Sequence record: PQ579973.1
Length of the DNA: 44,409 bases
DNA from: Escherichia phage MirsaeidiM_Esher4
Reading direction: 5' to 3' (one strand)
In this document: piece after piece, positions 1 to 44,409 of the stretch
Position numbering within the stretch: position 1 is the stretch's first letter
Layout of the letters: the number at the start of each line of letters is the position of its first letter
Program-made: the position numbers and the translations under genes
The notes under the pieces: generated by a model
Database searches by the model: none
What the model was told of the DNA's origin: nothing
Seen by the model: only the letters and a program-made list of their open reading frames with translations

Positions 1-55
1 AAAAACAAAAGGCCTGCGTACAGAGATGTAACTGTGTGGCATGGGTGGCAAAGGT
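1..55. repeat. Terminal direct repeat; identical to 44355..44409 (circular wrap or terminal redundancy)
   Basis: Bases 1-55 match bases 44355-44409 exactly on direct comparison; a reading frame continues across the junction. Confidence 0.9.
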
Positions 56-438
56 TTATGTCATTCCGTAAATGGTGGCTTTGTAATTATGTAGAGGGAT
101 GGGAACTAGATAAGGACATATTCTCCGGTATTAATAAGATATACAGTCCTACCACTTGCATTTTTATCCCGCAATGGTTGAATGTTTTTCTACAGGAAAA
201 GAAAAATAGTGGTTCACCCACCGGTGTTTTTTATGAAGAATCAAGAGGTAAATTTAAAGCATCAGTGAATTATGAGAAAAAAACTATTAATATAGGACGT
301 TTTGAAACTAAGGAAGAAGCGCTAGATGCCTACATTGCCGAAAAGATAAGGATAGCGGAATCAAGGAGATGTGAGATAGAGGCGATAAGAGAAGGTATGT
401 TCGACCGCGTTGTCGCCTTGATAAAAGAGGGGCGTTAG
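1..438 (+). CDS. AP2-domain protein, putative homing-endonuclease-like; C-terminal part of the gene that begins at 44142
   Basis: Frame is open from position 1 in phase with ATG 44142; AP2-like segment GVFYEESRGKFKASVNYEKKTINIGRFETKEEALDAYIAEK; no clear HNH motif seen; AT-richer than neighbours. Confidence 0.6.
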   Translation, partial: KNKRPAYRDVTVWHGWQRFMSFRKWWLCNYVEGWELDKDIFSGINKIYSPTTCIFIPQWLNVFLQEKKNSGSPTGVFYEESRGKFKASVNYEKKTINIGRFETKEEALDAYIAEKIRIAESRRCEIEAIREGMFDRVVALIKEGR

Positions 439-492
439 CTCGGAGGATGTAGGATGGCGTAAATATGGCCCGAAAGGGCCATATCTTTGTTA

Positions 493-2490
493 TCACTTAA
501 AGCCAGGTGCATTTCGCGTAGACTTGCGGGCCTTGCTAATCCGACTGTTGCTGTTCATTAGCTCAGAAGCCACCTGCTCAGAGATAATGATGCGCAGACG
601 CCCTTCATCATCCTGTTCAGTAGATACGTTGCCGATTTGTGCACTAGTGTTGTTAATGATGCTGATGTTAGCCGGGCCGCTGTTACCACTGCCTGACAGC
701 TCAGCCCGCGTCTGGCTTGCATTACTTGCACGACCGGCACCACCCATCTTAATAATCTCTGGACCACGTTCCCCGACAAGATAGCTACCGCCTGCGTTCA
801 TCTGCCCGCCCTGCTCACGCGCACCGCTAATCTTGGCGATGTTAGCCACACCTGCGGCAACTGCCAGACCGGCGGCAACCGGGGCTAGCGCCGGGCCAAC
901 AATCGGGATAGCTGCCGTGGACTTGTACGCCTCTATAGCTGCGGTGTAGGTGGCGATGGTCGCCTGGGTGATTGCGAACGCTTTATACGCGGCGGACGTT
1001 TCACCCAATGCGGATTTAGCATCGGCAGCCATGCTTCCGAACGCGTTGGCTGTAGCGTTAGCCTGCGCAATGTTGCTTTGCTCATTCAGCGCGGTAACTG
1101 CGTTGGCGTACTGTTCTTCGCTAATCAGCTTCTGTTTCAGGAAGTCATCCAGTTGCTTGAGTTTGGCGTCATTCTGCCGTTGGATTTCCTCGTACTCAGT
1201 GCCGCCAAGCGCTTGTAACTTCTGTAAATACACATCGGCGTTGTTGTAGAGGGCGTCCCGCTGTGCCTGAAACTCAGCCATGATGTCGCTTTTCGACTGC
1301 TCATACTCAGCGTCGCTTACCAGTTGCTTGTCATGGTATTCCTGCAACTTAGCTAGCTTCTGCTTCTCTTTAGCATCGATTTTGTCTAACTCGGTACCTG
1401 TGTTGGTATCGAGTTGCGCGATGAACTGGTCAGCGGCTTTCTGTGCGCTCTCCTGCGCTTTAGCCTCTGCTCGTGCCTGCGCGGACGCACGTTTCACGGC
1501 GGCAGCACTGATTCGATTCTGGCGGTCGATTTCCTTCTGCGCCCGGTCCGCTTTGTCCTTCTCGTATGTCTTCTCAGCCTGTTCTACGCCCTTACGTTCA
1601 GCGGCGCGTGTCTTCTCCTCTACGCCTAGGTAGTTCAGTTCATTACGCAGCTTGTTAAGCTCGATTTGCGCTTCCGGCGTCTTAGCTTTGATGCCGTCGA
1701 GGTACGCAATCAGTCCTTCACGAGCGCCCGGAACTCCAGCGGCGATAGCTTTCTGTGCGACCTCAATACTACGCATCTCTTTTGCGGTAAGTCCAGCGGC
1801 CTCTGCTGCTGCTTCGTACTGGAACGCCACCGCCCCAGCAGCATTACCGCCCTGCGCTATCTGCGACGCGGCAAGGTTGGTCGTAAGCTTCTGGAAGATG
1901 GACTGCGCCTTAGTCACCTTGTCGATTGCTTCTACAATCTTGTCAGCGGTAGCGTTGGCTTGCACGGCAGTAGCTTCCAGTGCCTTGTTGAGAAATGCCA
2001 TCTTCTCCGCCGTGGTAGCACCGATAGCGTCGAGCTTCTCCAGTGCGTCGTTCATTTCATACACGCCCGGCGTTGCTTCGTTCAGTGCATCATCGAGGAA
2101 CTTGGTCGCGTCTTCCAGTTCCTTTGCGGTGTCCTTCGCGTCGGACATCGAAGCGTATAGCGCGCCGCCGATAACCGTAGCCAGCGTCAACACAGTACCT
2201 GCAATCGGGTTAAACGCTGATACTAACTGGCTACCCTGCTGGGTGAACGCGGTGAGGGCCGATTGCCCGCCCTGAATCTGTACGATGAAGTCCTGTACCT
2301 GATATCCAGCGTTGCCGATGGACGCTTTGAGCGCGTTCATCTTCGGTGCCGCTGCCGATGTGGTGTCAGTCATCTTCTTGGTACTGGTATCCGCCTTACC
2401 CGCGGAACTGCTCAGGCTATCAAGCTGCTTGGCGGCCTGCTCTGCCCCGGTAGCCTGTACCTTTACGATTAAACTTGCGGTATCTGCCAT
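493..2490 (-). CDS. Tail tape measure protein
   Basis: Long Ala/Gln/Lys-rich coiled-coil-like protein with hydrophobic Gly/Ala C-terminal segment, downstream of tail chaperone ORFs. Start moved to ATG 2490 (MADTAS..., GAGGA RBS) from track start 2529. Confidence 0.85.
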   Translation of the reverse strand: MADTASLIVKVQATGAEQAAKQLDSLSSSAGKADTSTKKMTDTTSAAAPKMNALKASIGNAGYQVQDFIVQIQGGQSALTAFTQQGSQLVSAFNPIAGTVLTLATVIGGALYASMSDAKDTAKELEDATKFLDDALNEATPGVYEMNDALEKLDAIGATTAEKMAFLNKALEATAVQANATADKIVEAIDKVTKAQSIFQKLTTNLAASQIAQGGNAAGAVAFQYEAAAEAAGLTAKEMRSIEVAQKAIAAGVPGAREGLIAYLDGIKAKTPEAQIELNKLRNELNYLGVEEKTRAAERKGVEQAEKTYEKDKADRAQKEIDRQNRISAAAVKRASAQARAEAKAQESAQKAADQFIAQLDTNTGTELDKIDAKEKQKLAKLQEYHDKQLVSDAEYEQSKSDIMAEFQAQRDALYNNADVYLQKLQALGGTEYEEIQRQNDAKLKQLDDFLKQKLISEEQYANAVTALNEQSNIAQANATANAFGSMAADAKSALGETSAAYKAFAITQATIATYTAAIEAYKSTAAIPIVGPALAPVAAGLAVAAGVANIAKISGAREQGGQMNAGGSYLVGERGPEIIKMGGAGRASNASQTRAELSGSGNSGPANISIINNTSAQIGNVSTEQDDEGRLRIIISEQVASELMNSNSRISKARKSTRNAPGFK

Positions 2491-2491
2491 T

Positions 2492-2809
2492 CTATTCATC
2501 CTCGTTACGGCCTTCGAACAATGCGTCAAGGCCCATGATTAAATCCACCTCCAATAGCGTGAACGGTTGCTTGTGTAGTTCAGCATATGCTGTCAGGTGA
2601 TGGTATTGAAGCATCTCCCTCGGTATTAGTACGTTATTGCGACTTACAAACTTCAATGCGTAGTATTTGTCCATGATTCGCATCATATCAGCCGGGCATT
2701 CTGGAGGGTCTTCTTCCGGCTCTGGCGGGACTGGTAATCCCATCGCCGTCAAAGCCGCTTTGTGACCGTCCGCGATGGAGTCGAACTCCCGGCGCTTCTG
2801 ACGTATCAC
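2492..2809 (-). CDS. Putative tail assembly chaperone frameshift extension (GT-like)
   Basis: ORF in -1 frame relative to upstream chaperone ORF, open upstream across its stop, immediately before the tape measure gene. No slippery heptamer identified. Confidence 0.35.
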   Translation of the reverse strand: MIRQKRREFDSIADGHKAALTAMGLPVPPEPEEDPPECPADMMRIMDKYYALKFVSRNNVLIPREMLQYHHLTAYAELHKQPFTLLEVDLIMGLDALFEGRNEDE

Positions 2810-3437: not shown

Positions 3438-3764
3438 ATGCGTACATTAATCTTAGCTTTAGGTTTCATATCTTTTACTGCGGTAGGTTCCACTTGTGAG
3501 CAGATTTATTCTGAAACCCCATTAATAACTGCGGGTTTAATAGAAAGCGCCCCTGTAGCCGCGCAAAAAATGTTTAAAAATGCGGTTATTAAAGAATGTG
3601 AGGCCGCGTATTCAGCAGGAGCAGCAGGGGTTAGCTTCGACCTTGTAACAGGCCTTGTCATGAGTTCTGTGGACATGAAATCACCAGGCTACAGCAGCGC
3701 ATTGGTGGCTACTCGCTTACAAATCGTCTCTCTAGCTTGGGCGGCGGGAGTGGAAAGTAAATAG
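3438..3764 (+). CDS. Small secreted protein of unknown function
   Basis: N-terminal signal-peptide-like segment MRTLILALGFISFTAVGSTC; two Cys in mature part; AT-rich codon usage; own operator-controlled promoter; opposite strand to surrounding tail genes. Confidence 0.6.
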   Translation: MRTLILALGFISFTAVGSTCEQIYSETPLITAGLIESAPVAAQKMFKNAVIKECEAAYSAGAAGVSFDLVTGLVMSSVDMKSPGYSSALVATRLQIVSLAWAAGVESK

Positions 3765-9048: not shown

Positions 9049-9561
9049 TTAACCCCGGTACACGTTAAACGAGAAACCATTGTTAAGACCACCACACAGT
9101 AACGGGCGTAATGCGTCGTCCGCAGCGGTAATAGCGGTTGTGGCGCCACTGTTGCCGTTGTTGAAGTAGGTCACTGTTACCGCACCCTCAACACGCTCAG
9201 TCTGCACGGAACGCCCATCTGAGTTAGCCCGCACCTCAGTACCCGCGCCATAGGTAACAGCAGCGATTACCTGCGCAAGAATCACCTGTTTCGGAATGGC
9301 GTTGTTGGCCACCGGGAACCCGTTTAACGTAACGCCGGTGCGGGGGTATGCAAGAGACTGTTCGGCGGATACTCGACGACCGCACATCTGCGGTTCTGCA
9401 AGCCCTACATAAGTAGCACCGTTGCGTAAGGCCACCTCTGCTGCGGTATCGTCTTCCGGCAACACAAGACCGTAATTAGCCGCTAACGCGCGGGCGTCGA
9501 CCAGTGAGATGTACGAATCGGCCCCTTCTATAATTTGACCTGTTTCTACGGTTAAGGACAC
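9049..9561 (-). CDS. Head-tail connector (gp6-like adaptor)
   Basis: N-terminal ISLVDARALAANYGL-type segment typical of gp6-like connector proteins; GTG start with AAGGGG RBS. Confidence 0.5.
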   Translation of the reverse strand: MSLTVETGQIIEGADSYISLVDARALAANYGLVLPEDDTAAEVALRNGATYVGLAEPQMCGRRVSAEQSLAYPRTGVTLNGFPVANNAIPKQVILAQVIAAVTYGAGTEVRANSDGRSVQTERVEGAVTVTYFNNGNSGATTAITAADDALRPLLCGGLNNGFSFNVYRG

Positions 9562-9564
9562 TTT

Positions 9565-10314
9565 TCACCCCTTCTTACAGTTATCAAAGTGCCACCTCTT
9601 TAGAAGAGATAGCGCCCCTTCGGTTCCGCAATGTGGGCATACCCCGCGCGGGCGTTTCATTCCAGTAAGTTTATCTGAAATTTTCTTGACAGTCTCGCCC
9701 TTTAACGTATGGCCCTTCTTAAAACTTCCGGAGTTAGGTTTTCTATTAACCTTGCCAACGATTCTATTTGGGTCCGCGAACTGGCATTTCTTGCAGCAAT
9801 ATTTACGCGCTCGTGATTTAAAACGGTAGGGGATCGGCTGGTCGCATGTTACACATCGTTGTGGGTTTGCCATGTAATGCTCTATTCTGGCTTTTCTACT
9901 TGCAGTTTCCCCAGTAGCAATTCCTTTATTCCACGCCTTTTGCCCTAGATGTGCTTGTCTGAGATTTTCTATACGTTTATCAGAAAATTTAACACCAGTA
10001 TTCAACCTGGACATCTCTATAGCCCAAGCCTCTTTCGCCAACTTAAAGGAATGTGAGTTAACTTTTGACCTTTGATTGTTTTTAGGGTTAATACACATAA
10101 CCCTCCAGGCGAAAGCTAGTTCTTTAGTCCCGTGTATCTTATAGAGAAGCCAATGCGCAATAAAATGCTGTCTAGCGCTCAAAGATACAATATTGTCAAA
10201 AGTATCTCCACCACCCATGCATTTCGGGACTATGTGATGTTTTTCGGTATACCCACTAAACGGATTGATTTTTGCGTTCGATATTAACTGTTCATAGATT
10301 TTGGCGTAGTTCAT
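9565..10314 (-). CDS. HNH homing endonuclease
   Basis: HNH motif EKHHIVPKCMGGGDTFDNIVSLSARQHFIAH; basic Cys-rich C-terminal repeats; AT-rich; inserted between connector and capsid-decoration genes; 270-bp non-coding gap follows. Confidence 0.85.
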   Translation of the reverse strand: MNYAKIYEQLISNAKINPFSGYTEKHHIVPKCMGGGDTFDNIVSLSARQHFIAHWLLYKIHGTKELAFAWRVMCINPKNNQRSKVNSHSFKLAKEAWAIEMSRLNTGVKFSDKRIENLRQAHLGQKAWNKGIATGETASRKARIEHYMANPQRCVTCDQPIPYRFKSRARKYCCKKCQFADPNRIVGKVNRKPNSGSFKKGHTLKGETVKKISDKLTGMKRPRGVCPHCGTEGALSLLKRWHFDNCKKG

Positions 10315-10585
10315 GATTCACCCTTTTCAATGGAGGATGGATTCATTATACCAACTACGCCAGATATTACTATTCCTCAGACTTACGGCGACGACGCTTA
10401 GCGCCACCGCCGTTGTTGTGCGCTTCTTCGTTGTCCGGTTGGGTCGCAACCAGTTCATCCGCTTCTACAACACCGCGAACCGGCATAACCTGCCCATCAA
10501 CAACATCAACGTGGGTGTACTTTTCGCGGATTACGTAATTATCTGCCATGACCTTTCCTTATTACGGCCCCGAAGGGCCGCCGTA

Positions 10586-25256: not shown

Positions 25257-25427
25257 ATGACTATCAATGAAGTTGCAGAATTAATCGGTGTCACCCGCCA
25301 GACAATTAATAACTGGATTAAGAGTGGAAAGTTTCCAGATTGCGGCGTTAAAGTAATGGGCCGCCGGATGCCGGGAACATTCGACCGTAATAAAGTTGAA
25401 GCGTGGATTAAGGAGAACGTGAAATGA
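25257..25427 (+). CDS. AlpA/excisionase-family HTH DNA-binding protein
   Basis: MTINEVAELIGVTRQTINNWIKSGKFP signature; ATG 25257 with AGGAGAA RBS. Confidence 0.6.
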   Translation: MTINEVAELIGVTRQTINNWIKSGKFPDCGVKVMGRRMPGTFDRNKVEAWIKENVK

Positions 25428-25657
25428 TTGGGCGTATGGGTTGTAGCTTCCGCGAAGACGGCAGCATTAAATATTATTTCAAGATTGCGTCAAATATAAC
25501 CGACGATGGGTGTTATGTAGAACTTTTCCCTTATAACTTTTGTGGACCCACTAAAATAGTTAAATTTTCTATAGAGGATATCCTTGATTGCAGTTTTTAC
25601 CGTAGCGAAGGAGAGTGGGTTAATGCGGTGCGTAGACAAAAGAAACCCCAACGCTAG
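25424..25657 (+). CDS. Hypothetical protein
   Basis: ATG overlapping upstream stop. Confidence 0.4.
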   Translation: MIGRMGCSFREDGSIKYYFKIASNITDDGCYVELFPYNFCGPTKIVKFSIEDILDCSFYRSEGEWVNAVRRQKKPQR

Positions 25658-25707
25658 AACGTCGGGGCCGAAGCATAAATCATCAAAGTAAGCACAAGGA
25701 TTATACA

Positions 25708-25836
25708 ATGACGAAGTTAATAGTTCCACAGCTACGCCGCCAGAAACACGGCGCTGATTTCTTCGCACCGGTAAAGATGAACCGCGCAATGCGCCGTATG
25801 CAGGAAGCCTTAGAACGTGCGGAGAAAAAGAAATGA
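25708..25836 (+). CDS. Small basic hypothetical protein (42 aa, below cutoff)
   Basis: ATG 25708; stop overlaps primase start (ATGA). Confidence 0.3.
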   Translation: MTKLIVPQLRRQKHGADFFAPVKMNRAMRRMQEALERAEKKK

Positions 25837-28094
25837 ATATTGTTTTTGCAACGCTGCGTAACACATTCGATAAAAACCCTGTAGCGCGTGAAATGCCGCT
25901 GGAGCAGTTCGTAGAGTATGTCTGTGATACATCGAAGCGTTTATCCGTGGACCCGTCGTGGACTAAGGAAGAGTACGACGCCGCCAAGATTAAACAGAAA
26001 GCTATCGCACCCGTTGGTGGTCGCCGTAAGAACGCGATTCTGGAAGACAGTGTGGTTAAGTTCGACTTTGACCATCTCAACCGTACTCAGTACCGCAACC
26101 TGACACGCAAATTTAAGAATGCGCCGTTCTTCAACATTCTGCATACAACGGCGTCACACCGGCACGCGTGCAAAAACGGGGATTACGCCTTCCGCGTTCT
26201 GGTTCCGGCTCGCACGCCGTTTAACTCTAACGATGCGTGGATGGTGCAACGTGCTATTTGTGCCGAGTTAGAAATAGACGAAGCATTGCGCGACCACTGC
26301 ACGGAAGACGGCAATCGCCTTATCTACCTGCCGCATAAAGAGTCAAAGATAACGGTTACAGAAGGGCGGGTTATCCGTGCTGAGCGGTACATCAAGAAAG
26401 CCGAAGAGATGGGATTGCGTAAGCGTGAAGCTAAGACGCTTGCTGCCGATGAGCACGGGCTTAACGCAGATATAGCCCATTTCTGCGAAGCTGAGTTAGG
26501 TCTTGACGCTCTATCTTCCGGCCGCGGGTACGAAGTACCATGTCCGAACGAACACCTGCACACCGGAAAAGGTTCCACCAGCATTATGCTTGACGGTAAA
26601 GAAGTGCGCTTCGTGTGCCAGCACACAAACAACGGCGCTTGCACTGAACTTAACCGTCGACAACATTTGGCCTTGCGTATGTGCGGGCTGCCAGACGAGC
26701 TTAACGTAGACAAGCAACCTATCAGTATTAACAGCATTCGTGCGGCTTTGCCGGATTTACCGGACGAAGAGATTGAGGAATTGCACCGCACAGAGAACGA
26801 AGAGCCTGTAACTTGCACTCTGGAAGACCTTGAAGACGAGCCGGAAGTAGAAAAAGAACCTGCTTACTCCGTCGTAGACGGCCTTATGCAGACTAATGAA
26901 TCCTTCTACATTTGCGCAAAGTCCCACACTGGTAAGTCAACATTTAGTATGGCGATTGACGCCGCTATTGCCGCTGAAAAAAGATATGCGTTCGGCGGGG
27001 CTGAGGTCGCAGAAGGACATGCGTTCATTTTTGCGGGTGAAGGTGCGCAGTCGTTCGAGCGACATAAAAAGTCTTTGCAGATTGCCCTCGGGGATAGCCT
27101 GGACCGCTTGCACATTATCGATTGTGTCGCCGATGGGTGTAATTTACTTGATGAGGCGTGGCGCCGCCAGGCGGTGAGAATGATGCGCCGTGTTGCCGGT
27201 GAAGAGAAAATTGTAAAGGTTACGTTTGATACCCTACAAACTTGCATACCGGGCTTCGACGAAAACGATAACAGGTCGATGAAAGAAGCGGCGCAGGCGC
27301 TTAACGAAATAGCGGCAACGCTTAACGCTGCGGTCGGCGCTATGGTGCACCCGACTAAAAACATCGACGAAACTGTGCCGTCTGAAAACGGCATGATGCC
27401 GAAGGGTGGAAGTGATTTTCACAACTCCATCGATAACGGGATGTTCCTGCATAAACCAGACAACGACAATAACTTAGAGATAAACCTGTATCACATAAAG
27501 AACCGAAATGGAGAACGGCAGAAAGCCAGAGGATTCGTAATACAGAAGATTAAGATAGCGGAGCCGCCGGAAAAGAAAGAACCAACTCACAACTTCATGG
27601 GGCTTCCGGAAGGGTATAGCAGTGATGATGTGCGCGATTTTGACGCGGGAAATCCGCATATTGATGTCTTTGTCAACTTCAACGCCTTCTCTGTCTTTGT
27701 GAAGAAAGTAGAAGGTATGACTGACGAACAGAAGGAAGCCGTTAAAGAAAAGGTAGGCCAGTTCGAGAAACTGGATTCCAAAGAGGCTACGGTTATTTAC
27801 GCATTAGGTAAATTGCAGGAGCAAGGCGACGACAAGCGAGGGTTCTCTATGTCAGCTATCGTCAAAGCGGCGAAAGAAGATAGTTACGGCGTACCGATTA
27901 ACGCTAATAACGACCTTCGAAAGAAACTGGAAGAGATGCACGAGGCGGGGGTTATCGTCTCTGGGCTGGATAACAACAACAGGCCCATCCCTAAGCAATA
28001 CAGGTTGCCGTGGGGTATAAACGACAACAAAATTCCTAAGACAATATACGAACCGAATGAAATGCTGACAGTGACAGAGGAGGATTTGGAATAG
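25833..28094 (+). CDS. Primase/helicase-like replication protein (zinc-binding region plus RecA/DnaB-like P-loop ATPase)
   Basis: Cys/His cluster CPNEHLHTGKG...CQHTNNGAC; Walker A SHTGKSTFSMAIDAA; 753 aa. Confidence 0.65.
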   Translation: MNIVFATLRNTFDKNPVAREMPLEQFVEYVCDTSKRLSVDPSWTKEEYDAAKIKQKAIAPVGGRRKNAILEDSVVKFDFDHLNRTQYRNLTRKFKNAPFFNILHTTASHRHACKNGDYAFRVLVPARTPFNSNDAWMVQRAICAELEIDEALRDHCTEDGNRLIYLPHKESKITVTEGRVIRAERYIKKAEEMGLRKREAKTLAADEHGLNADIAHFCEAELGLDALSSGRGYEVPCPNEHLHTGKGSTSIMLDGKEVRFVCQHTNNGACTELNRRQHLALRMCGLPDELNVDKQPISINSIRAALPDLPDEEIEELHRTENEEPVTCTLEDLEDEPEVEKEPAYSVVDGLMQTNESFYICAKSHTGKSTFSMAIDAAIAAEKRYAFGGAEVAEGHAFIFAGEGAQSFERHKKSLQIALGDSLDRLHIIDCVADGCNLLDEAWRRQAVRMMRRVAGEEKIVKVTFDTLQTCIPGFDENDNRSMKEAAQALNEIAATLNAAVGAMVHPTKNIDETVPSENGMMPKGGSDFHNSIDNGMFLHKPDNDNNLEINLYHIKNRNGERQKARGFVIQKIKIAEPPEKKEPTHNFMGLPEGYSSDDVRDFDAGNPHIDVFVNFNAFSVFVKKVEGMTDEQKEAVKEKVGQFEKLDSKEATVIYALGKLQEQGDDKRGFSMSAIVKAAKEDSYGVPINANNDLRKKLEEMHEAGVIVSGLDNNNRPIPKQYRLPWGINDNKIPKTIYEPNEMLTVTEEDLE

Positions 28095-29289: not shown

Positions 29290-30536
29290 TTTTAAAGGAA
29301 CGCGGCGGCAATAACGATGTGCACGCCTTACTGTCGCCGTCTGGCGCTAAAAAGTGGCTGGCGTGCAGTGCATCACTGGCCTGTGAGAAAGATATTCCCA
29401 ACACGTCTGGTAAAGCCGCCGTTACAGGGACTGCATGCCACACCATAGCGGAGATGCACCTTAACCAGTACATCAAAGGCACTGCTCTGCCATTAGAGCG
29501 TGAAGTTGGCGCTTATGTGCTGGATGAAGGTAAAGGCCAGATTAAGGCGCTAATCAGCCCAATGAAAGGCGCGGTACTGATTACGGCGGACATGATTGAG
29601 CAGGTGCGCAAGTACACCGACTACTGCAAAGCGATTATCGACGTAGCGACTTACGCTAAGCTGGAAATGCGCGTCAATCTTACTGAGGTGTTGCACCCAG
29701 GCTACGAAGGCGTTGAAACGTTCGGAACTGCTGACCTTGTTGCCGTACAGGAACTGGCAAACACCGACGAGCACATGCTCATTATTGGTGACCTGAAAAC
29801 AGGACGGCATCGCGTCGAAGCGAAAGAAAACAAGCAGCTTATGCTTTACGCTCTCGGTGTTTATCGCCGACTCAAGAGACGTTATAACATCACAGTAGCG
29901 CGCCTGGTCATCTTCCAGCCGTACGCGGGGGGTGCGTCGGAGTGGGATATCTCGGTCGAAGGTCTGGAACTGTTCGCTAAGTTCGCACAGAAACGGGCAC
30001 TGTTAGCGCTTGATGCTTATTTCCGTGGAAAGAAGAACCTGAAAGCGTCGGACTTTAAACCGTCGGTCGATGGTTGCCAGTGGTGCCGGTTCTCTGAACA
30101 GTGTGCCGCGCGTACAAAGACGGTTAATTCTGTACTGGCGGAAGAACTTGAAGACGACTTTGTGCTGGAACTGACGACGGAGCAACTCGTAGTTGAGTAT
30201 GAGAAGTTGCCGCTGTTACGCCAGCACATCGACAAGGTTGAGAAAGCGATGACCGCCGCATTGCATTCCGGTAAGAAAGTGCCGGGTTACAAGCTGGTTG
30301 AAGGCCGCCAGGGTAATCGTGCGTGGAAAGATGCCGATGCGATTGAAGTGTCACACGGCGACATTCTCAAAAAAGAGGTATTGATGACCCCTACGGAGGC
30401 AGCAAAAGTTCTTTCGGCGGATGAGATGGCAGCGCTTGAGCCGTTTATTACCCGTAAGCCAGGCGCACCATGTGTCGCAACGGCAGACGACAAACGTCCT
30501 GAGTGGAATCAGGTATCAGAGGAGGATTTGGAATGA
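29286..30536 (+). CDS. PD-(D/E)xK nuclease, Cas4/RecB-like (DUF2800-type)
   Basis: Motifs IGDLKTG, EAKENKQLMLYALG (ExK, QxxxY), C-terminal CQWCRFSEQC plus N-terminal Cys; start ATG 29286 with GGGAGA RBS. Confidence 0.7.
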   Translation: MILKERGGNNDVHALLSPSGAKKWLACSASLACEKDIPNTSGKAAVTGTACHTIAEMHLNQYIKGTALPLEREVGAYVLDEGKGQIKALISPMKGAVLITADMIEQVRKYTDYCKAIIDVATYAKLEMRVNLTEVLHPGYEGVETFGTADLVAVQELANTDEHMLIIGDLKTGRHRVEAKENKQLMLYALGVYRRLKRRYNITVARLVIFQPYAGGASEWDISVEGLELFAKFAQKRALLALDAYFRGKKNLKASDFKPSVDGCQWCRFSEQCAARTKTVNSVLAEELEDDFVLELTTEQLVVEYEKLPLLRQHIDKVEKAMTAALHSGKKVPGYKLVEGRQGNRAWKDADAIEVSHGDILKKEVLMTPTEAAKVLSADEMAALEPFITRKPGAPCVATADDKRPEWNQVSEEDLE

Positions 30537-31033
30537 GTTTAGTTCGGGAGCGTTTCATTTATGAAAACGGGAAACTAATCTATCGCCACAATACAAAAAG
30601 AATGTTAGCTGGTCAGGAGGCGGGAAGCCTCCACCATTCAGGGTATGTGCAGATATACATTAATTGTAAGTCCTACCAAAGAAGCCGTTTAATATGGGGG
30701 TACCACAACGGCCCTATACCTGAAGGGTTTGAGGTGGACCATATAAATGCGATAAGAAATGATGACAGGATAGAGAATCTCCAGTTAATCGCTCATAGCG
30801 ATAATGTGGCTAAAGGCGGCATTCAAACCGGAAGAAGTCATAACAAAAGCGGGTACACTGGCGTGTTCTGGCGCAAAAGCCACGGTAAATGGCAGGCTGG
30901 GATTACCGTAAACGGGCGATATCGTTACCTTGGACTATTCGAAACTCCTGAACAGGCTAACGTGGCAAGAAAGAATTTTGAAAGTAATTTGCTAAAAGAA
31001 GTTGACTACCGAATAGCGAACTATTATAGTTAA
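30533..31033 (+). CDS. HNH homing endonuclease with AP2 DNA-binding domain
   Basis: HNH motif GYHNGPIPEGFEVDHINAIRNDDRIENLQLIAHSDN; AP2-like SGYTGVFWRKSHGKWQAGITVNGRYRYLGLFETPEQA; AT-rich; start moved to ATG 30533. Confidence 0.8.
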   Translation: MSLVRERFIYENGKLIYRHNTKRMLAGQEAGSLHHSGYVQIYINCKSYQRSRLIWGYHNGPIPEGFEVDHINAIRNDDRIENLQLIAHSDNVAKGGIQTGRSHNKSGYTGVFWRKSHGKWQAGITVNGRYRYLGLFETPEQANVARKNFESNLLKEVDYRIANYYS

Positions 31034-31092
31034 ATCACTGGCCGGGCAGTTCCCGGAGTAACTTAAAATCTAAACTTAATGAGGGCTGAACT

Positions 31093-31719
31093 GTGGGACT
31101 GAAATTAAATCTGCGTAAAGTAAACACTGCATGGGTTAACGTATTCGAACGCGAAAAAGACCGTGAAAACGATGATGGCTCAATCACTAAAGGCCAGTAC
31201 AGCGCGACTATCATCCTGCCGTCTGACCACGCACAAATCGACGCGCTCTACGACACCGTTTACGCTGTGGTTGAAGAAGCGTTGGGCGCAGCTGCCGCTG
31301 AGAAGTGGATGAAGTCCAACTACGGCGAAGGTAAGCACATGGATAAATGTGCGATTAAAGACATTGCCGAGCGCGACAATCCGTTTGAAGACTTCCCGGA
31401 AGGCTTCTACTTCAAGGCGAAGGCACAGAAACAGCCACTGATTGTAACCTCTAAAAAAGGCGAGACTCAGGTAGAACAGGACTTCAATGTAGACGGCGAA
31501 CAGATTGAAGGTGAACAGGTTTACAGCGGCTGCGTCGCTAACGTAAGCGTTGAAATCTGGTTCAGCCAGAAATACAAAGTCCTCGGCGTTAACCTGCTGG
31601 CTATTAAATACGTTGGTGAAGGTAAAGCGTTTGGCGGTTCTAAAGTAGCCGCAAGCGTCGATGACCTTGAAGACGATGAAGAGGATGAAGCACCGCGCCG
31701 CGAACGTCGTCGCCGTTAA
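31093..31719 (+). CDS. DUF2815-like putative single-strand DNA-binding protein
   Basis: GTG start with GAGGG RBS; acidic stretch DDLEDDEEDE then basic tail; follows Cas4-like nuclease, a common pairing. Confidence 0.5.
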   Translation: MGLKLNLRKVNTAWVNVFEREKDRENDDGSITKGQYSATIILPSDHAQIDALYDTVYAVVEEALGAAAAEKWMKSNYGEGKHMDKCAIKDIAERDNPFEDFPEGFYFKAKAQKQPLIVTSKKGETQVEQDFNVDGEQIEGEQVYSGCVANVSVEIWFSQKYKVLGVNLLAIKYVGEGKAFGGSKVAASVDDLEDDEEDEAPRRERRRR

Positions 31720-34818: not shown

Positions 34819-35639
34819 ACTATTACAATGAATGGGATAAAGGCGCAGCCGCGTGGCTGCGTGAGTTGATAAAACAGGGTAACATACCTTTTGGAGTTGT
34901 AGATGAAAGAAGCATTACCGAAGTTAAGCCAGAAGACCTTGACGGGTTCACCCAGTGTCATTTTTTCGCGGGTATCGGCGGCTGGCCTCTCGCGCTCAGA
35001 CTTGCGGGAGTTCCGGAAGATGCGCCTCTCTGGACGGGAAGCCCGCCTTGCCAACCGTTTAGCGCGGCGGGAAAGCAACTCGGACAGTTCGACCCGAGAC
35101 ACCTCGCGCCGGTCTTCCTCGACATCATCAGCGAGTGCCGCCCTCCAGTCATCTTTGGGGAGCAGGTTGCGCCAGCAATTGCAAAATCGTGGATGTGCGA
35201 TTTACAAGCTCACCTGGAAGGAGAAGACTACGCCGTCGGGTTTGCTGTACTCCCAGCTTGTAGCGTCGGCGCACCGCACAAAAGAGAACGACTCTTCTTT
35301 GGCGCGCACGAACTGGCCTACACCGACAGCGAACGACTTCAGAGGGAGCGGAGAGACAGTGATTCGCACGGACGGGAGGGACAGAACATTCGACAGGCTG
35401 GACTACTCAACAGAGCAGGGATTGAAAGCGAGTCAACCAACCCGCACCACGGCTTCTGGTCAGATGCTGACTGGCTCGGATGCCGTGATGGAAAGTTCCG
35501 GCCGGTTGAACCCGGCGCATTCCCGCTGGCTAATGGGGTACCCGCAAGAGTGGGACGATTGCGCGGTTACGGCAATGCCATCGTCCCGCAAGTAGCCGCC
35601 GAATTTATAAAGGCGTTTATGGGGGCGGTAAATGAGTAA
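34815..35639 (+). CDS. DNA cytosine-5 methyltransferase (frame may be disrupted; see findings)
   Basis: Motif I FAGIGG, motif IV PPCQPFS, ENV-like GEQV, motif [14 protein letters not shown], motif [15 protein letters not shown]; motif IX-like [10 protein letters not shown] lies in overlapping +1 frame. Confidence 0.65.
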
Positions 35640-37056
35640 GTTTCAAAGGCGCGAATACCAGAAGCTCATGACTTCGTTCATGCTGCGGCACCATCGCTGC
35701 AATATCTGGGCGAGCATGGGCAGCGGTAAGTCGGGGTCAACGTTGTGGGTTCTCAATCGACTGTTCCGTAATGGGCAACTTAATGACGACGACCGAGTGT
35801 TAATTCTGGCTCCTTTACGTGTTGCGTCAGGTACGTGGCCCGCGGAACAGGCACGTTGGAGCTTCCCCTGTCTGAGTGTCGTAGACGCAACCGGTTCAGA
35901 GAAGCGCCGTATCGCGGCGCTGGAGTCAGATGCTAACGTGGTGTGCACAAACTACGAAGTTATCGAGTGGCTGATTGACTACTACGGCAAAGACGACTGG
36001 CCTTTTACGGTTATCGTTGCTGATGAGAGCACGAAGCTGAAATCTTTCCGTAGCCGTTCTGGAGGAAGCAAACGGGCTAAGGCGCTAAGCAAAGTGGCGT
36101 TCGGAAAGGTTAAGCGTTTCATTAACCTGACAGGCACACCGTCGCCGAACGGCCTCAAGGACTTGTGGGGGCAGAACTGGTTTATCGACGCTGGCGAGCG
36201 CCTTGGTTCTTCGTACACGGCATTCACAGACCGCTGGTTTAACTCGGTACAGAAAGGGAAATCCGCGATGGCGCGGGAGTATCACGCACGACCGGGTGCG
36301 GATAATGAGATTCATCAGAAGATGAAAGACATTAGTCTCACTATTGACGCCGCTGAGTGGTTCGGGTGTGAAGCGCCGATTATTGTTACGGTTGAAATCG
36401 ACCTGCCGAAGAAAGCACGTCAGGCGTACATCGATATGGAGGAGAAGTTATTCGCGGAACTTGAGAGCGGGGAAGTGGAAGCTGCTAACGCTGCGGCGAA
36501 GACGTCGAAGTGCTTGCAAATTGCGTCCGGTGCCGTATATGTATCTGGGCCAGACGGCGAAGCAACCAAAGACTGGGAGAAAGTACACGACACGAAACTG
36601 GATGCGCTGGAGTCCATTGCCGAGGAGTTGCAGGGTGCGCCGTTACTAGTCGCCTATCAGTTCAAGCACGAACTGGAGCGCATCCTCAAGCGCTTCCCGC
36701 AGGCGCAGGCTTTTGCAAAAGGCGCGAAGGGCAATAAGCAGATGGAAGCGTGGAACCGTGGCGAAATCGAAATCCTATGCGTGCACCCCGCGTCAGCCGG
36801 CCATGGCTTGAATTTACAGGACGGCGGACATCATCTGGCGTTTATTTCGCAAGGCTGGAACCTTGAGCACTATTTGCAGGTTGTCGAGCGTATAGGCCCG
36901 GTGCGCCAGAAGCAGGCGGGCCACGAGCGACCAGTGTTCATCTATCACATCGTTGCTAAAGACACGCTGGACGAGGTTGTTGCCTCGCGTACTGACGAGA
37001 AGAAATCGGTCCAGGAAGAGTTGCTTAATTACATGAAGAGACGAGGTAAGAAATGA
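35632..37056 (+). CDS. SNF2/DEAD-like superfamily 2 helicase
   Basis: Walker A SMGSGKSGST, DExx-like VIVADESTKL, NLTGTPSPN motif. Confidence 0.75.
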   Translation: MSKFQRREYQKLMTSFMLRHHRCNIWASMGSGKSGSTLWVLNRLFRNGQLNDDDRVLILAPLRVASGTWPAEQARWSFPCLSVVDATGSEKRRIAALESDANVVCTNYEVIEWLIDYYGKDDWPFTVIVADESTKLKSFRSRSGGSKRAKALSKVAFGKVKRFINLTGTPSPNGLKDLWGQNWFIDAGERLGSSYTAFTDRWFNSVQKGKSAMAREYHARPGADNEIHQKMKDISLTIDAAEWFGCEAPIIVTVEIDLPKKARQAYIDMEEKLFAELESGEVEAANAAAKTSKCLQIASGAVYVSGPDGEATKDWEKVHDTKLDALESIAEELQGAPLLVAYQFKHELERILKRFPQAQAFAKGAKGNKQMEAWNRGEIEILCVHPASAGHGLNLQDGGHHLAFISQGWNLEHYLQVVERIGPVRQKQAGHERPVFIYHIVAKDTLDEVVASRTDEKKSVQEELLNYMKRRGKK

Positions 37057-43609: not shown

Positions 43610-44106
43610 TGCATCGGGTCCCAAATTCGTGGAAACGTTGATTGTGCAGTTCCGTAGGCTTTAAGGAAACACCCCAGCCCGTCACCATAGCAACCGTACA
43701 AATCCGGCAGATTGTTAATCAGGCACTGGTTCTCGAGGTCCTGGAACGGTGATTTCTCAGCGGTTGCCGTGAAGGTAATTGTCCAGTTAATCCCGTCTTC
43801 GGTAGACTCGGCGATGGTTGACGTGATTGTTACCTGATAATCTTCGATGCCCATGCCGAAGTCGTGCGCCATCCAGAAACTTGACGCACCGCCGTCTACT
43901 TTTTCGAGGAACGACAGAAACGCCTGTCGCCCCATTGCGGATGTAATCAGGGTTACGCTAACAGGGAACACGTCGTAATACGTGTCACGGCCCTGACGCA
44001 CCCCGCCACCGGCTAAATCTACACTCCAGACGTTGTTACGTCTGGTCATCGAATAGCCTTTCGACACCACCGGCTTTAAACTTGCTGGAAATTTCAAGGA
44101 AGACAT
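43606..44106 (-). CDS. Minor tail protein (gpM-like)
   Basis: Resembles lambda M-type minor tail proteins (SVTL...FLE..GG..SF.W pattern); AGGAG RBS. Confidence 0.5.
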   Translation of the reverse strand: MSSLKFPASLKPVVSKGYSMTRRNNVWSVDLAGGGVRQGRDTYYDVFPVSVTLITSAMGRQAFLSFLEKVDGGASSFWMAHDFGMGIEDYQVTITSTIAESTEDGINWTITFTATAEKSPFQDLENQCLINNLPDLYGCYGDGLGCFLKAYGTAQSTFPRIWDPMQ

Positions 44107-44141
44107 AGTAAGATACTCCTATTATTTTAGGAGATACTAAC

Positions 44142-44409
44142 ATGATACCCACCGAAAAAGTAGCTAAGAGTATGTGGCTGCGTGCGAATTATCCCGCGAA
44201 CAAAAGCAGCAAAACTAGGCGCGCAACTATATGCGATTTTGGCATAAATGACGCCGATTATGTAGTTAGTCCTAAGATAAACGGCAACCGTGAGCCGTGT
44301 CCGGCGTACGCTACATGGCGAGGGATGATCCAACGTTGTACAGACACCGAGTATAAAAACAAAAGGCCTGCGTACAGAGATGTAACTGTGTGGCATGGGT
44401 GGCAAAGGT
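44142..44409 (+). CDS. AP2-domain putative homing-endonuclease-like protein, N-terminal part (continues at 1..438)
   Basis: ATG 44142 with TAGGAG RBS; frame runs into the terminal repeat in phase with ORF 34..438; combined product about 216 aa. Confidence 0.6.
   Translation, partial: MIPTEKVAKSMWLRANYPANKSSKTRRATICDFGINDADYVVSPKINGNREPCPAYATWRGMIQRCTDTEYKNKRPAYRDVTVWHGWQR
44355..44409. repeat. Terminal direct repeat (copy of 1..55)
   Basis: Exact 55-bp identity with window start. Confidence 0.9.

What the first reader, a model, noticed from the sequence alone, without database searches (positions are those of the whole stretch)
9565..10314. Three homing-endonuclease-like insertions interrupting conserved modules
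An HNH endonuclease (9565-10314) sits between connector and capsid-decoration genes and is followed by a 270-bp non-coding gap. An HNH-AP2 endonuclease (30533-31033) is wedged between the Cas4-like nuclease and the SSB-like gene. An AP2-domain protein (44142 to 438 across the junction) lies on the opposite strand between the tape measure and distal tail genes. All are AT-richer than flanking genes, consistent with mobile elements. Two carry AP2 DNA-binding domains.
Basis: partly seen in the sequence, partly recalled or inferred. Interest (0 to 1): 0.4.

Follow-up and report, generated by a model that had tools for sequence, protein, structure and literature searches.

The report
Three selfish endonuclease genes in phage
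This K1G-like E. coli phage genome carries three small, AT-rich, sporadically distributed endonuclease-type genes slotted between conserved genes, which is an ordinary and already annotated kind of selfish DNA in phages.

Summary
The window is a circularly assembled Kagunavirus (K1G-like) genome, 44,354 bp plus a 55-bp assembly overlap. All three ORFs exist at the stated coordinates, are intact, are under purifying selection, and have 42-43% GC against 50.8% for the genome.

- HEG1 (9565-10314, minus strand) is a MobE-like HNH protein. It is 99.6% identical to K1G's annotated homing endonuclease.
- HEG2 (30533-31033) is an HNH_3 + AP2 protein.
- HEG3 (44142 to 438 across the junction) has an AP2 domain. 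Its N-terminal domain could not be shown to be a nuclease.

Each lies in an intergenic slot that is empty in most relatives. In IMG/VR, HEG1 is present at 1 of 34 Kagunavirus-like loci, HEG2 at 0 of 36 and HEG3 at 0 of 25. Diverged orthologues (54-81% identity) sit at exactly the same three sites in other Guernseyvirinae-like contigs.

The HEG1 cassette is 99.4% identical to K1G while the adjacent gene is only 81% identical, which indicates recent lateral transfer.

One claim is wrong. The "270-bp non-coding gap" contains a conserved 59-aa gene.

The HEG2 site is also a general variable slot, so its flanking "silent changes" are not specific to HEG2.

The feature is real but ordinary.

The parts
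9565..10314 (-). HEG1: 249-aa MobE-like HNH endonuclease gene. It has an N-terminal HNH motif (EKHHIVP...DN...QH), a YacG-like zinc ribbon, and NUMOD3 motifs in its homologues.
   Evidence: ORF. phrog_655 at E 7.6e-56 and Pfam HNH at 18.4 bits, below threshold. HNH stretch aligns to the McrA HNH, and the zinc ribbon to YacG. 99.6% aa identity to K1G gp13 'homing endonuclease' and 32-34% over the full length to Mob-type HEGs of T4-like phages. Homologues carry PF07460 NUMOD3. dN/dS 0.085.
9501..10396 (.). HEG1 cassette, the block shared with K1G. It holds the HEG, 55 bp of upstream spacer, the last ~27 nt of the 59-aa ORF, and the recoded first ~20 codons of the adaptor gene.
   Evidence: 5 differences in ~896 nt against K1G. 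The adjacent stretch 9301-9500 is 81% identical to K1G but 94% identical to the HEG-less fEg-Eco19.
9505..9561 (-). Recoded 5' end of the head-tail adaptor gene. It is the predicted HEG1 target region, present here in a resistant form.
   Evidence: 52.6% nt identity to HEG-less alleles, against 90-94% further on. The variant GATTCGTA is in 6 of 6 HEG+ loci and 1 of 45 HEG- loci, Fisher p 4e-7 with phylogeny ignored.
10345..10353 (-). Extended -10 promoter-like element TGGTATAAT, 30 nt upstream of the HEG1 ATG (end of element to start codon) and inside the cassette.
   Evidence: The only TGNTATAAT in the window, with 1.18 expected genome-wide. Conserved in K1G. This is a consensus match only, and there is no -35 element.
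10370..10549 (-). It is not part of the mobile element.
   Evidence: phrog_4451 at E 8e-34. Annotated orthologues in K1G, fEg-Eco19, VIPECOTH07 and SP-031.
30533..31033 (+). HEG2: 166-aa HNH_3 + AP2 endonuclease gene.
   Evidence: Pfam HNH_3 at 60 bits (cut-off 24.8) and AP2 at 25.2 bits, below threshold. phrog_99 at E 2.9e-50. D69, H70, N82 and N91 are invariant in 11 homologues. dN/dS 0.10 against the 97%-identical copy in L009.
30515..30536 (+). Last codons of the exonuclease gene, carrying a GAGGAGG Shine-Dalgarno sequence and an ATGA stop/start overlap that couples HEG2 to the exonuclease gene.
   Evidence: 6 silent differences from the empty-site alleles. The same junction is used by at least 6 unrelated small ORFs in 20 of 36 IMG/VR loci, so it is not specific to HEG2.
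31002..31030 (+). Sigma-70-like promoter TTGACT-17-TATAGT for the SSB gene, overlapped by the 3' end of the HEG2 ORF.
   Evidence: 10 of 12 consensus match. Conserved as an intergenic element in all empty and occupied alleles.
44142..44409 (+). HEG3, 5' part (codons 1-89). The ORF continues at window position 56.
   Evidence: SD sequence AGGAGA lies 7 nt upstream of the ATG.
1..438 (+). HEG3, 3' part (codon 72 to the stop; positions 1-55 repeat 44355-44409). The 216-aa protein has an AP2 domain (residues ~145-190) and a conserved N-terminal domain with invariant D108, K109, D110, Y119 and N132.
   Evidence: Pfam AP2 at 23 bits, below threshold, and phrog_953 at E 8.7e-65. Alignment of 63 homologues. 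Model with pLDDT 95.4. Foldseek hit to the AP2 domain of 1gcc, probability 1.0. dN/dS 0.13-0.17.
463..484 (+). Intrinsic-terminator-like hairpin ATATGGCCCGAAAGGGCCATAT followed by a T-rich tail, downstream of HEG3 and facing the tape measure gene.
   Evidence: The scan calls it on the + strand only, so it would stop the antisense HEG3 transcript.
44077..44106 (-). Recoded first 10 codons of the distal tail gene, associated with the presence of HEG3.
   Evidence: 96.7% identical to HEG3+ phages and 54.5% identical to K1G. All 25 HEG-less IMG/VR loci read ATGAGCGAC... and have a TAATG overlap with the tape measure stop.

Best explanation
The window is a complete Kagunavirus genome carrying three free-standing (intergenic) homing-endonuclease-type gene cassettes.

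Inferred mechanism, by analogy with the T4 seg/mob genes. During co-infection with a related phage that lacks the cassette, the encoded protein binds a conserved sequence near the empty site. Binding would use NUMOD3 and zinc-ribbon modules in HEG1 and the AP2 domain in HEG2 and HEG3. The protein then nicks or cuts that DNA. Recombinational repair from the cassette-bearing genome copies the gene and some flanking sequence into the recipient.

Each cassette is fitted into the host's expression signals.
- HEG1 carries an extended -10 element. Its 3' end supplies the ribosome-binding site for a recoded adaptor gene that starts with GTG.
- HEG2 is translationally coupled to the exonuclease gene through an ATGA overlap. 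It reads through the SSB promoter without destroying it.
- HEG3 lies antisense in the tail operon. It has its own SD sequence and terminator, and it brings a new SD sequence for the downstream tail gene.

Shown here: the ORFs, their domains, composition, sporadic site-specific distribution, purifying selection, and the mosaic borders of the HEG1 cassette.

Inferred: cleavage, target sites, and homing itself. For HEG3, nuclease activity is also only inferred.
For: Identity of the genome. It is K1G-like.

Domains.
- HNH_3 above threshold in HEG2.
- HEG1 has full-length similarity to Mob-type HEGs and an HH..N..H motif.
- AP2 fold in HEG3.

Sporadic distribution.
- K1G is +/-/- at the three sites, and fEg-Eco19 and VIPECOTH07 are -/-/+.
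- In IMG/VR the elements are present at 1 of 34, 0 of 36 and 0 of 25 loci.

Same site across divergence.
- HEG1 orthologues at 67%, 55% and 54% identity.
- HEG2 orthologues at 97%, 66% and 58% identity.
- HEG3 orthologues at 81%, 58% and 55% identity, always antisense.

Recent transfer.
- The HEG1 cassette is 99.4% identical to K1G inside a backbone that is 81% identical to K1G.
- The HEG2 block is 96-100% identical to L009, whose exonuclease gene is 62-90% identical to the window's. The window's flanks are 98-100% K1G-like.

Target-region recoding.
- Adaptor gene 5' end.
- Tail gene 5' end.

Other support.
- Low GC.
- dN/dS of 0.09-0.22.
- Literature precedent: T4 MobE is a free-standing HNH endonuclease that nicks the neighbouring gene and is inherited with co-conversion (PMC2790892). 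Free-standing HEGs sit in intergenic regions, often embed or displace promoters, and T4's segD is antisense (PMC2988022). HNH/HNN-AP2 endonuclease genes are gained and lost in phages (PMC2248197).
Against: - No biochemical or genetic test of cleavage or homing is possible here.
- HEG1 scores below Pfam's HNH threshold.
- HEG3 matches no Pfam nuclease domain in any of 63 family members.
- HEG3's profile similarity to the HNH_3-AP2 family disappears once the AP2 part is trimmed off (probability 0.65%).
- Fold search of the HEG3 N-domain gives only non-significant HNH hits (4h9d at E 6.9).
- The position that would hold the catalytic His in HEG3 is an invariant Lys.
- HEG3 is about as diverged from its closest copies (91-92%) as the adjacent tail genes are, so there is no sign of recent transfer.
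- The HEG2 site is a general variable slot. Its left junction and part of its right flank also occur with unrelated cargo or with none. Those flanks are therefore not evidence of HEG2-driven co-conversion.
Confidence: 0.75

Rival explanations
1. HEG3 is not an endonuclease. It is a sequence-specific DNA-binding protein, such as a regulator or a domesticated or decayed HEG relative. Its patchy distribution would then reflect ordinary recombination between phages.
For: - No nuclease domain was detected by Pfam in 63 members.
- The trimmed profile comparison is not significant, and neither are the comparisons.
- PDB fold searches match only the AP2 domain.
- Most BFVD structural neighbours are unnamed or 'DNA-binding domain protein'.
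- The divergence of HEG3 equals that of its flanks.
Against: - D108, K109, D110, Y119 and N132 are invariant and lie in a predicted beta-beta-alpha element, as a His-Me finger would.
- The local motif EGWELD matches EGFEVD of HNH_3.
- PHROGs groups the protein with families named HNH endonuclease.
- It keeps the same site and orientation across 55-81% divergence, yet is absent from the closest tail-gene relatives.
- It has low GC and a recoded flank.
Confidence: 0.3
2. The three genes are accessory cargo exchanged by general recombination at pre-existing hot spots between conserved modules. The encoded nucleases would play no part in their spread.
For: - Locus 2 holds at least 6 unrelated small ORFs, or nothing, between the same two junctions in 36 IMG/VR loci.
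- Kagunavirus genomes are mosaic. For example, the tape measure gene is ~65% identical next to genes that are 90-97% identical.
Against: - Loci 1 and 3 are tight, translationally coupled junctions in every empty genome (3-nt spacer, TAATG overlap). No other cargo was seen there in the empty loci examined.
- Two of the three proteins have recognisable HNH catalytic motifs that are maintained by selection.
- The HEG-linked recoding of the adjoining gene is what target immunity predicts.
Confidence: 0.12
3. The nucleases serve the phage itself, for example as a packaging-associated HNH like HK97 gp74, in host DNA degradation, or in exclusion of competitors, rather than being selfish.
For: HNH proteins with phage functions exist (PMC3592412). 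Marker exclusion by HEGs benefits the carrier (PMC2988022).
Against: - None of the three genes lies next to the terminase genes.
- Nearly all relatives lack them and are viable isolates.
Confidence: 0.05

Closest known systems
Escherichia phage K1G gp13 (YP_009168793, 'homing endonuclease; similar to T6 mobE') and the T4-type Mob family, of which MobE is characterised
   Same: HEG1 is 99.6% identical to K1G gp13 and sits at the same site. It is 32-34% identical over its full length to Mob-type HNH genes of T4-like phages. It is free-standing, with an N-terminal HNH and a C-terminal DNA-binding region. The gene next to it carries the presumed target, as nrdB does for MobE (PMC2790892).
   Different: HEG1 lies in a siphovirus head-to-tail module rather than the nrd cluster. 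It has a promoter-like element of its own, whereas T4 mobE has no promoter. Its activity has not been tested.
HNH(HNN)-AP2 phage endonucleases (Pfam HNH_3 + AP2; described by Magnani et al. 2004 as cited in PMC2248197), for example FSL SP-031 gp08
   Same: HEG2 has the same two-domain layout. It is 66.5% identical to SP-031 gp08, which occupies the same exonuclease|SSB site.
   Different: This version was not found in any Kagunavirus record of the phage collection. In that genus it was seen only in a Logan assembly, at 97% identity.
PHROG 953 / AP2-domain phage proteins annotated 'HNH endonuclease', for example VIPECOTH07_00051 and fEg-Eco19 gp47
   Same: HEG3 is 90-92% identical to these proteins. 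They sit at the same TMP|tail-gene site and are also antisense.
   Different: The family has an invariant Lys where HNH_3 has the catalytic His. No nuclease domain could be demonstrated.
T4 segD (antisense free-standing HEG between genes 23 and 24)
   Same: Like HEG3, it is oriented against an essential late structural operon, is flanked by terminators, and has no recognisable promoter of its own (PMC2988022).
   Different: segD is a GIY-YIG protein, which is an unrelated protein family.

Membership tests
HNH / His-Me finger endonucleases (Pfam PF01844, PF13392) | Significant match to the HNH profile, with the catalytic His and the Asn residues present. Tested for HEG2. | tested here: met
   HNH_3 at 60 bits against a cut-off of 24.8. 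D69, H70, N82 and N91 are invariant.
HNH / His-Me finger endonucleases (Pfam PF01844, PF13392) | The same feature, tested for HEG1. | tested here: inconclusive
   Pfam HNH at 18.4 bits, below the 21.4 cut-off. The motif HH(26-27)...DN...H aligns to the McrA HNH at E 0.004. phrog_655 'homing endonuclease' at E 7.6e-56.
HNH / His-Me finger endonucleases (Pfam PF01844, PF13392) | The same feature, tested for HEG3. | tested here: not met
   No HNH hit in any of 63 family members. Trimmed hhalign gives probability 0.65%. Foldseek's best HNH hit has E 6.9. Lys109 occupies the position of the catalytic His.
AP2 DNA-binding domain (PF00847) | Three-stranded sheet plus helix fold with a profile match. 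| tested here: met
   Pfam scores are below threshold (25.2 and 23.0 bits against 33.3). The HEG3 model matches AtERF1 1gcc with rmsd 2.3 over 54 residues and probability 1.0. HEG2 matches the WRI1 AP2 domain at E 0.0036. The two families align over the AP2 region with probability 98%.
Free-standing homing endonuclease genes (T4 seg/mob type) | Intergenic ORF that is not inside an intron or intein. | tested here: met
   Alignments to empty sites show clean insertion between genes.
Free-standing homing endonuclease genes (T4 seg/mob type) | Sporadic presence and absence at one fixed site among close relatives. | tested here: met
Free-standing homing endonuclease genes (T4 seg/mob type) | Transfer together with flanking sequence (co-conversion). 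| tested here: inconclusive
   Clear for HEG1, with a sharp 99.4% / 81% border. Confounded for HEG2, because the slot is a general one. No recent transfer is visible for HEG3.
Free-standing homing endonuclease genes (T4 seg/mob type) | Site-specific cleavage of the element-less allele and super-Mendelian inheritance. | not testable with these tools
   Requires crosses and enzyme assays.

The most novel reading that the evidence does not exclude
The HEG3 family (AP2 domain plus a confidently folded N-terminal domain with invariant D-K-D...Y...N and no histidine) may be an uncharacterised, widespread class of phage site-specific nuclease in which Lys replaces the His-Me general base. Alternatively it may be a non-catalytic 'homing' DNA-binding protein that relies on other nucleases. 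In Guernseyvirinae it has kept one antisense position between the tape measure and distal tail genes across about 45% sequence divergence.
Probability: 0.2. Interest if true: 0.45.

Novelty: new member of a known kind. Interest (0 to 1): 0.2.

Why it matters
The value is mostly for annotation and genome curation. The analysis identifies the phage as a Kagunavirus, fixes the circular junction, corrects a missed gene, and flags three dispensable selfish cassettes. That is useful if such phages are engineered or compared for therapy.

It also gives concrete, testable target predictions:
- the adaptor-gene codons ...GCCGACAGTTACATTAGT... for HEG1;
- the TAATG tape-measure/tail-gene junction for HEG3.

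Finally, it points to a common phage AP2 protein family whose supposed 'HNH' annotation rests on no detectable nuclease domain.

Tried and rejected
- I first read the 6 silent changes at the end of the exonuclease gene and the ~110-nt variant stretch downstream of HEG2 as an HEG2 co-conversion or immunity tract. The IMG/VR census rejected this. The same left junction (SD sequence plus ATGA) precedes at least 6 unrelated small ORFs, and the GTG-start variant of the SSB leader occurs in empty alleles.
- I suspected HEG3 was a degenerate HNH_3 with H changed to K. The full-length profile comparison looked strong (probability 98%), but the signal comes from the AP2 domain. Sequence search of the PDB, fold search of the whole model and of the N-domain model, and comparisons with a 'DRID'-motif ORF found in fEg-Eco19 were all non-significant.
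- The small ORFs at locus 2 in Hrm2 and Bas76 are not remnants of HEG2.
- No further paralogues of the three genes exist in the window.
- The consensus promoter scan found nothing for HEG1 or HEG3.
- NCBIfam gave no useful names.
- Literature searches on Kagunavirus or Jerseyvirinae together with HEGs returned nothing specific.

Full report
**What the window is.** The first 55 bases repeat the last 55, so the sequence is a circularly closed assembly of 44,354 bp. Megablast of three 3-kb pieces finds hundreds of Guernseyvirinae phages. The best match is Escherichia phage K1G and other Kagunavirus phages, at 88-97% identity. Complete annotated relatives were fetched for comparison:
- K1G (L001)
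- fEg-Eco19 (L002)
- Cornellvirus FSL SP-031 (L003)
- vB_VIPECOTH07 (L011)

**Checking the observation.** All three ORFs are present as described.
- 9565-10314(-) encodes 249 aa.
- 30533-31033(+) encodes 166 aa.
- The third ORF starts at ATG 44142 and stops at 438 once the overlap is removed, giving 216 aa.

PHROG matches confirm the neighbours:
- head-tail adaptor Ad1 and Hoc-like decoration protein
- PD-(D/E)XK exonuclease and Gp2.5-like SSB
- tape measure and a virion/distal tail protein, with the third ORF on the opposite strand

GC is 42.5%, 43.1% and 42.2%, against 50.8% for the genome. These values lie in the lowest 1-4% of same-length windows. GC3 is 0.42-0.44, against 0.53-0.65 in neighbouring genes.

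One claim fails. The "270-bp non-coding gap" after the first ORF contains a 59-aa ORF at 10370-10549(-). It matches phrog_4451 at E 8e-34 and is annotated in all four fetched relatives.

**What the proteins are: HEG1.**
- It matches PHROG 655 "homing endonuclease" over its whole length (E 7.6e-56).
- It scores only 18.4 bits on Pfam HNH, below the cut-off of 21.4.
- Its N-terminal EKHHIVP...DN...QH stretch aligns with the McrA HNH, and residues 153-201 align with the YacG zinc ribbon.
- Many of its homologues carry NUMOD3.
- It is 99.6% identical to K1G gp13, annotated "homing endonuclease, similar to T6 mobE".
- It is 32-34% identical, end to end, to Mob-type genes of T4-like phages.

**What the proteins are: HEG2.** It has HNH_3 at 60 bits and a sub-threshold AP2 domain. 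D69, H70, N82 and N91 are invariant among its homologues.

**What the proteins are: HEG3.**
- It has a sub-threshold AP2 hit.
- An AlphaFold model built from 63 homologues (pLDDT 95.4) matches the AtERF1 AP2 domain, with probability 1.0.
- Its N-terminal domain has invariant D108, K109, D110, Y119 and N132 in a predicted beta-beta-alpha element.
- None of the 63 members hits a Pfam nuclease domain.
- The apparent relation to the HNH_3-AP2 family (probability 98%) vanishes when the AP2 part is removed (probability 0.65%).
- Fold search of the isolated N-domain gives only non-significant HNH hits.

I therefore do not file HEG3 as an HNH endonuclease.

All three ORFs are intact, with dN/dS of 0.09-0.22 against their closest copies.

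**Presence and absence.**

| Element | Phage collection (50,697 records) | IMG/VR census | Diverged orthologues at the same site |
|---|---|---|---|
| HEG1 | K1G only | 1 of 34 Kagunavirus-like adaptor loci, 0 of 9 more distant | 67%, 55%, 54% identity |
| HEG2 | No Kagunavirus; 66.5% identity in SP-031-like Salmonella phages | 0 of 36 | 97%, 66%, 58% identity |
| HEG3 | 4 phages at 90-92% identity | 0 of 25 | 81%, 58%, 55% identity, always antisense |

- K1G is +/-/- at the three sites. fEg-Eco19 and VIPECOTH07 are -/-/+.
- The phages whose adjacent tail genes are closest to the window (fKuEco01 at 97%, K1H at 96%) lack HEG3.
- Each element thus has diverged orthologues at exactly its own site in other ~40-45 kb Guernseyvirinae-like contigs, yet is absent from most close relatives.

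This combination of a fixed site and a patchy distribution is the expected signature of homing endonuclease genes.

**Borders and anatomy: HEG1.** The block 9501-10396 differs from K1G at 5 positions in about 896 nt. The next 200 nt of the adaptor gene are 81% identical to K1G and 94% identical to the HEG-less fEg-Eco19. This is a sharp mosaic border that indicates recent lateral transfer of the cassette.

The first ~20 codons of the adaptor gene are recoded, at 52.6% nt identity to empty alleles. The variant GATTCGTA, in place of GACAGTTA, is found in 6 of 6 HEG-bearing loci and 1 of 45 HEG-less loci. The Fisher p-value of 4e-7 ignores phylogeny. I take this region to be the likely target, here in a resistant form. 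The single exception, L024, looks like an empty but resistant allele.

The cassette also carries the window's only TGNTATAAT element, 30 nt upstream of the start codon.

**Borders and anatomy: HEG2.** The ATG overlaps the exonuclease stop codon (ATGA) and follows a GAGGAGG Shine-Dalgarno sequence written into the exonuclease's last codons. The ORF's 3' end runs through the conserved SSB promoter, TTGACT-17-TATAGT.

The window's flanks are 98-100% K1G-like. The block 30515-31107 is 96-100% identical to contig L009, whose exonuclease gene is only 62-90% identical to the window's.

The census shows this site to be a general cargo slot. Of the 36 loci, 16 are empty and 20 hold one of at least six unrelated small ORFs behind the same SD/ATGA junction. 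The downstream leader variant also occurs in empty alleles. The flanking changes are therefore not HEG2-specific evidence of co-conversion.

**Borders and anatomy: HEG3.** In empty genomes the tape measure stop codon overlaps the next gene's start codon (TAATG). This holds for K1G and for all 25 IMG/VR loci.

The insertion (44077-44354 plus 1-496) adds four things:
- the antisense ORF with its own SD sequence
- a hairpin terminator at 463-484 on the HEG strand
- a new SD sequence for the tail gene
- a recoded set of first 10 codons for the tail gene

HEG3 is as diverged from its nearest copies as the neighbouring tail genes are (91-92% against 91-94%, with similar dS). No recent transfer is visible.

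**Mechanism.** T4 provides the precedents.
- MobE is a free-standing HNH enzyme that nicks the neighbouring nrdB gene of a mobE-less phage. It is then inherited together with flanking markers (PMC2790892).
- Free-standing HEGs occupy intergenic regions and integrate with, or embed, host promoters. One of them, segD, lies antisense in a late operon (PMC2988022).
- HNH/HNN-AP2 genes are gained, decay and are lost in phages (PMC2248197).

By analogy, the best explanation is that these are three homing-endonuclease cassettes that spread during co-infection by cleavage of the empty allele followed by recombinational repair.
- Shown here: anatomy, distribution, selection, and the transfer of HEG1.
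- Inferred: cleavage, target sites, and homing.
- For HEG3, the nuclease activity itself is unproven. The main rival is that it is a DNA-binding protein without catalytic activity.

**Novelty.** HEG1 and HEG3 have near-identical annotated counterparts in GenBank. HEG2 has an annotated orthologue in a sister genus. Free-standing HEGs are commonplace in phages. This is a new combination of members of a known kind. The only mildly open point is the nature of the His-less N-terminal domain of the HEG3 family.

Noticed in passing
window 1-55 and 44355-44409: An exact 55-bp terminal duplication, which is the overlap artefact of a circular assembly. The true genome length is 44,354 bp.
   Followed up: yes
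window 30515-31107; IMG/VR loci L066-L101: The exonuclease|SSB junction is a general variable slot in Kagunavirus. It is empty in 16 of 36 loci and holds one of at least 6 unrelated ORFs of 52-83 aa (some look membrane-spanning) in 20 of 36. All of these sit behind the same GAGGAGGATTTRGAATGA coupling junction.
   Followed up: partly
L024 (IMGVR_UViG_3300045988_017057), adaptor gene start at 2001: A genome without HEG1 that carries the HEG1-associated variant GATTCGTACATCTCA in an otherwise HEG-less-type adaptor gene. It may be a resistant empty site or a footprint of loss or partial conversion.
   Followed up: no
L002 (fEg-Eco19) ~35356-36249, inside the DNA polymerase gene: The polymerase gene is ~894 nt longer than the window's. 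The extra segment reads through in frame as C...LVAHN|C, which looks like an intein. It also contains, in another frame, an ORF with the motif LEMDRIDTDGNYEPGNIRFVSRSEN that has no Pfam hit.
   Followed up: partly
L018 633-1259: A second paralogue of HEG3, 35% identical and also antisense, lies between two other tail genes in a metagenomic relative. The family can therefore occupy more than one site in the tail operon.
   Followed up: partly
L009 1310-1555: An 81-aa ORF similar to the N-terminal part of HEG2 (31% identity, weak HNH_3 hit) lies upstream of the exonuclease gene. It is probably a truncated HEG remnant.
   Followed up: no
window 3438-3764 (+): A 108-aa ORF on the opposite strand with a hydrophobic N-terminus and low local GC (~43%). 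It matches phrog_14165 (unknown function) and is absent from K1G and fEg-Eco19. It is a moron-like accessory gene.
   Followed up: partly
window 493-2529 (-): The tape measure gene is only ~65% identical, or unalignable, to relatives whose adjacent tail genes are 90-97% identical. This is a strong mosaic break next to HEG3.
   Followed up: no
window 25425-28016: The primase-helicase region (ORF 25833-28094) has no nucleotide match in K1G and only a partial match in fEg-Eco19. The replication module has been swapped.
   Followed up: no
L008 1471-2103 (vB_Eco_Hrm2) and L002 18559-19191: A 37%-identical relative of HEG3 occupies a different site, after the major tail protein gene, in several Kagunavirus phages. 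That site is empty in the window.
   Followed up: partly
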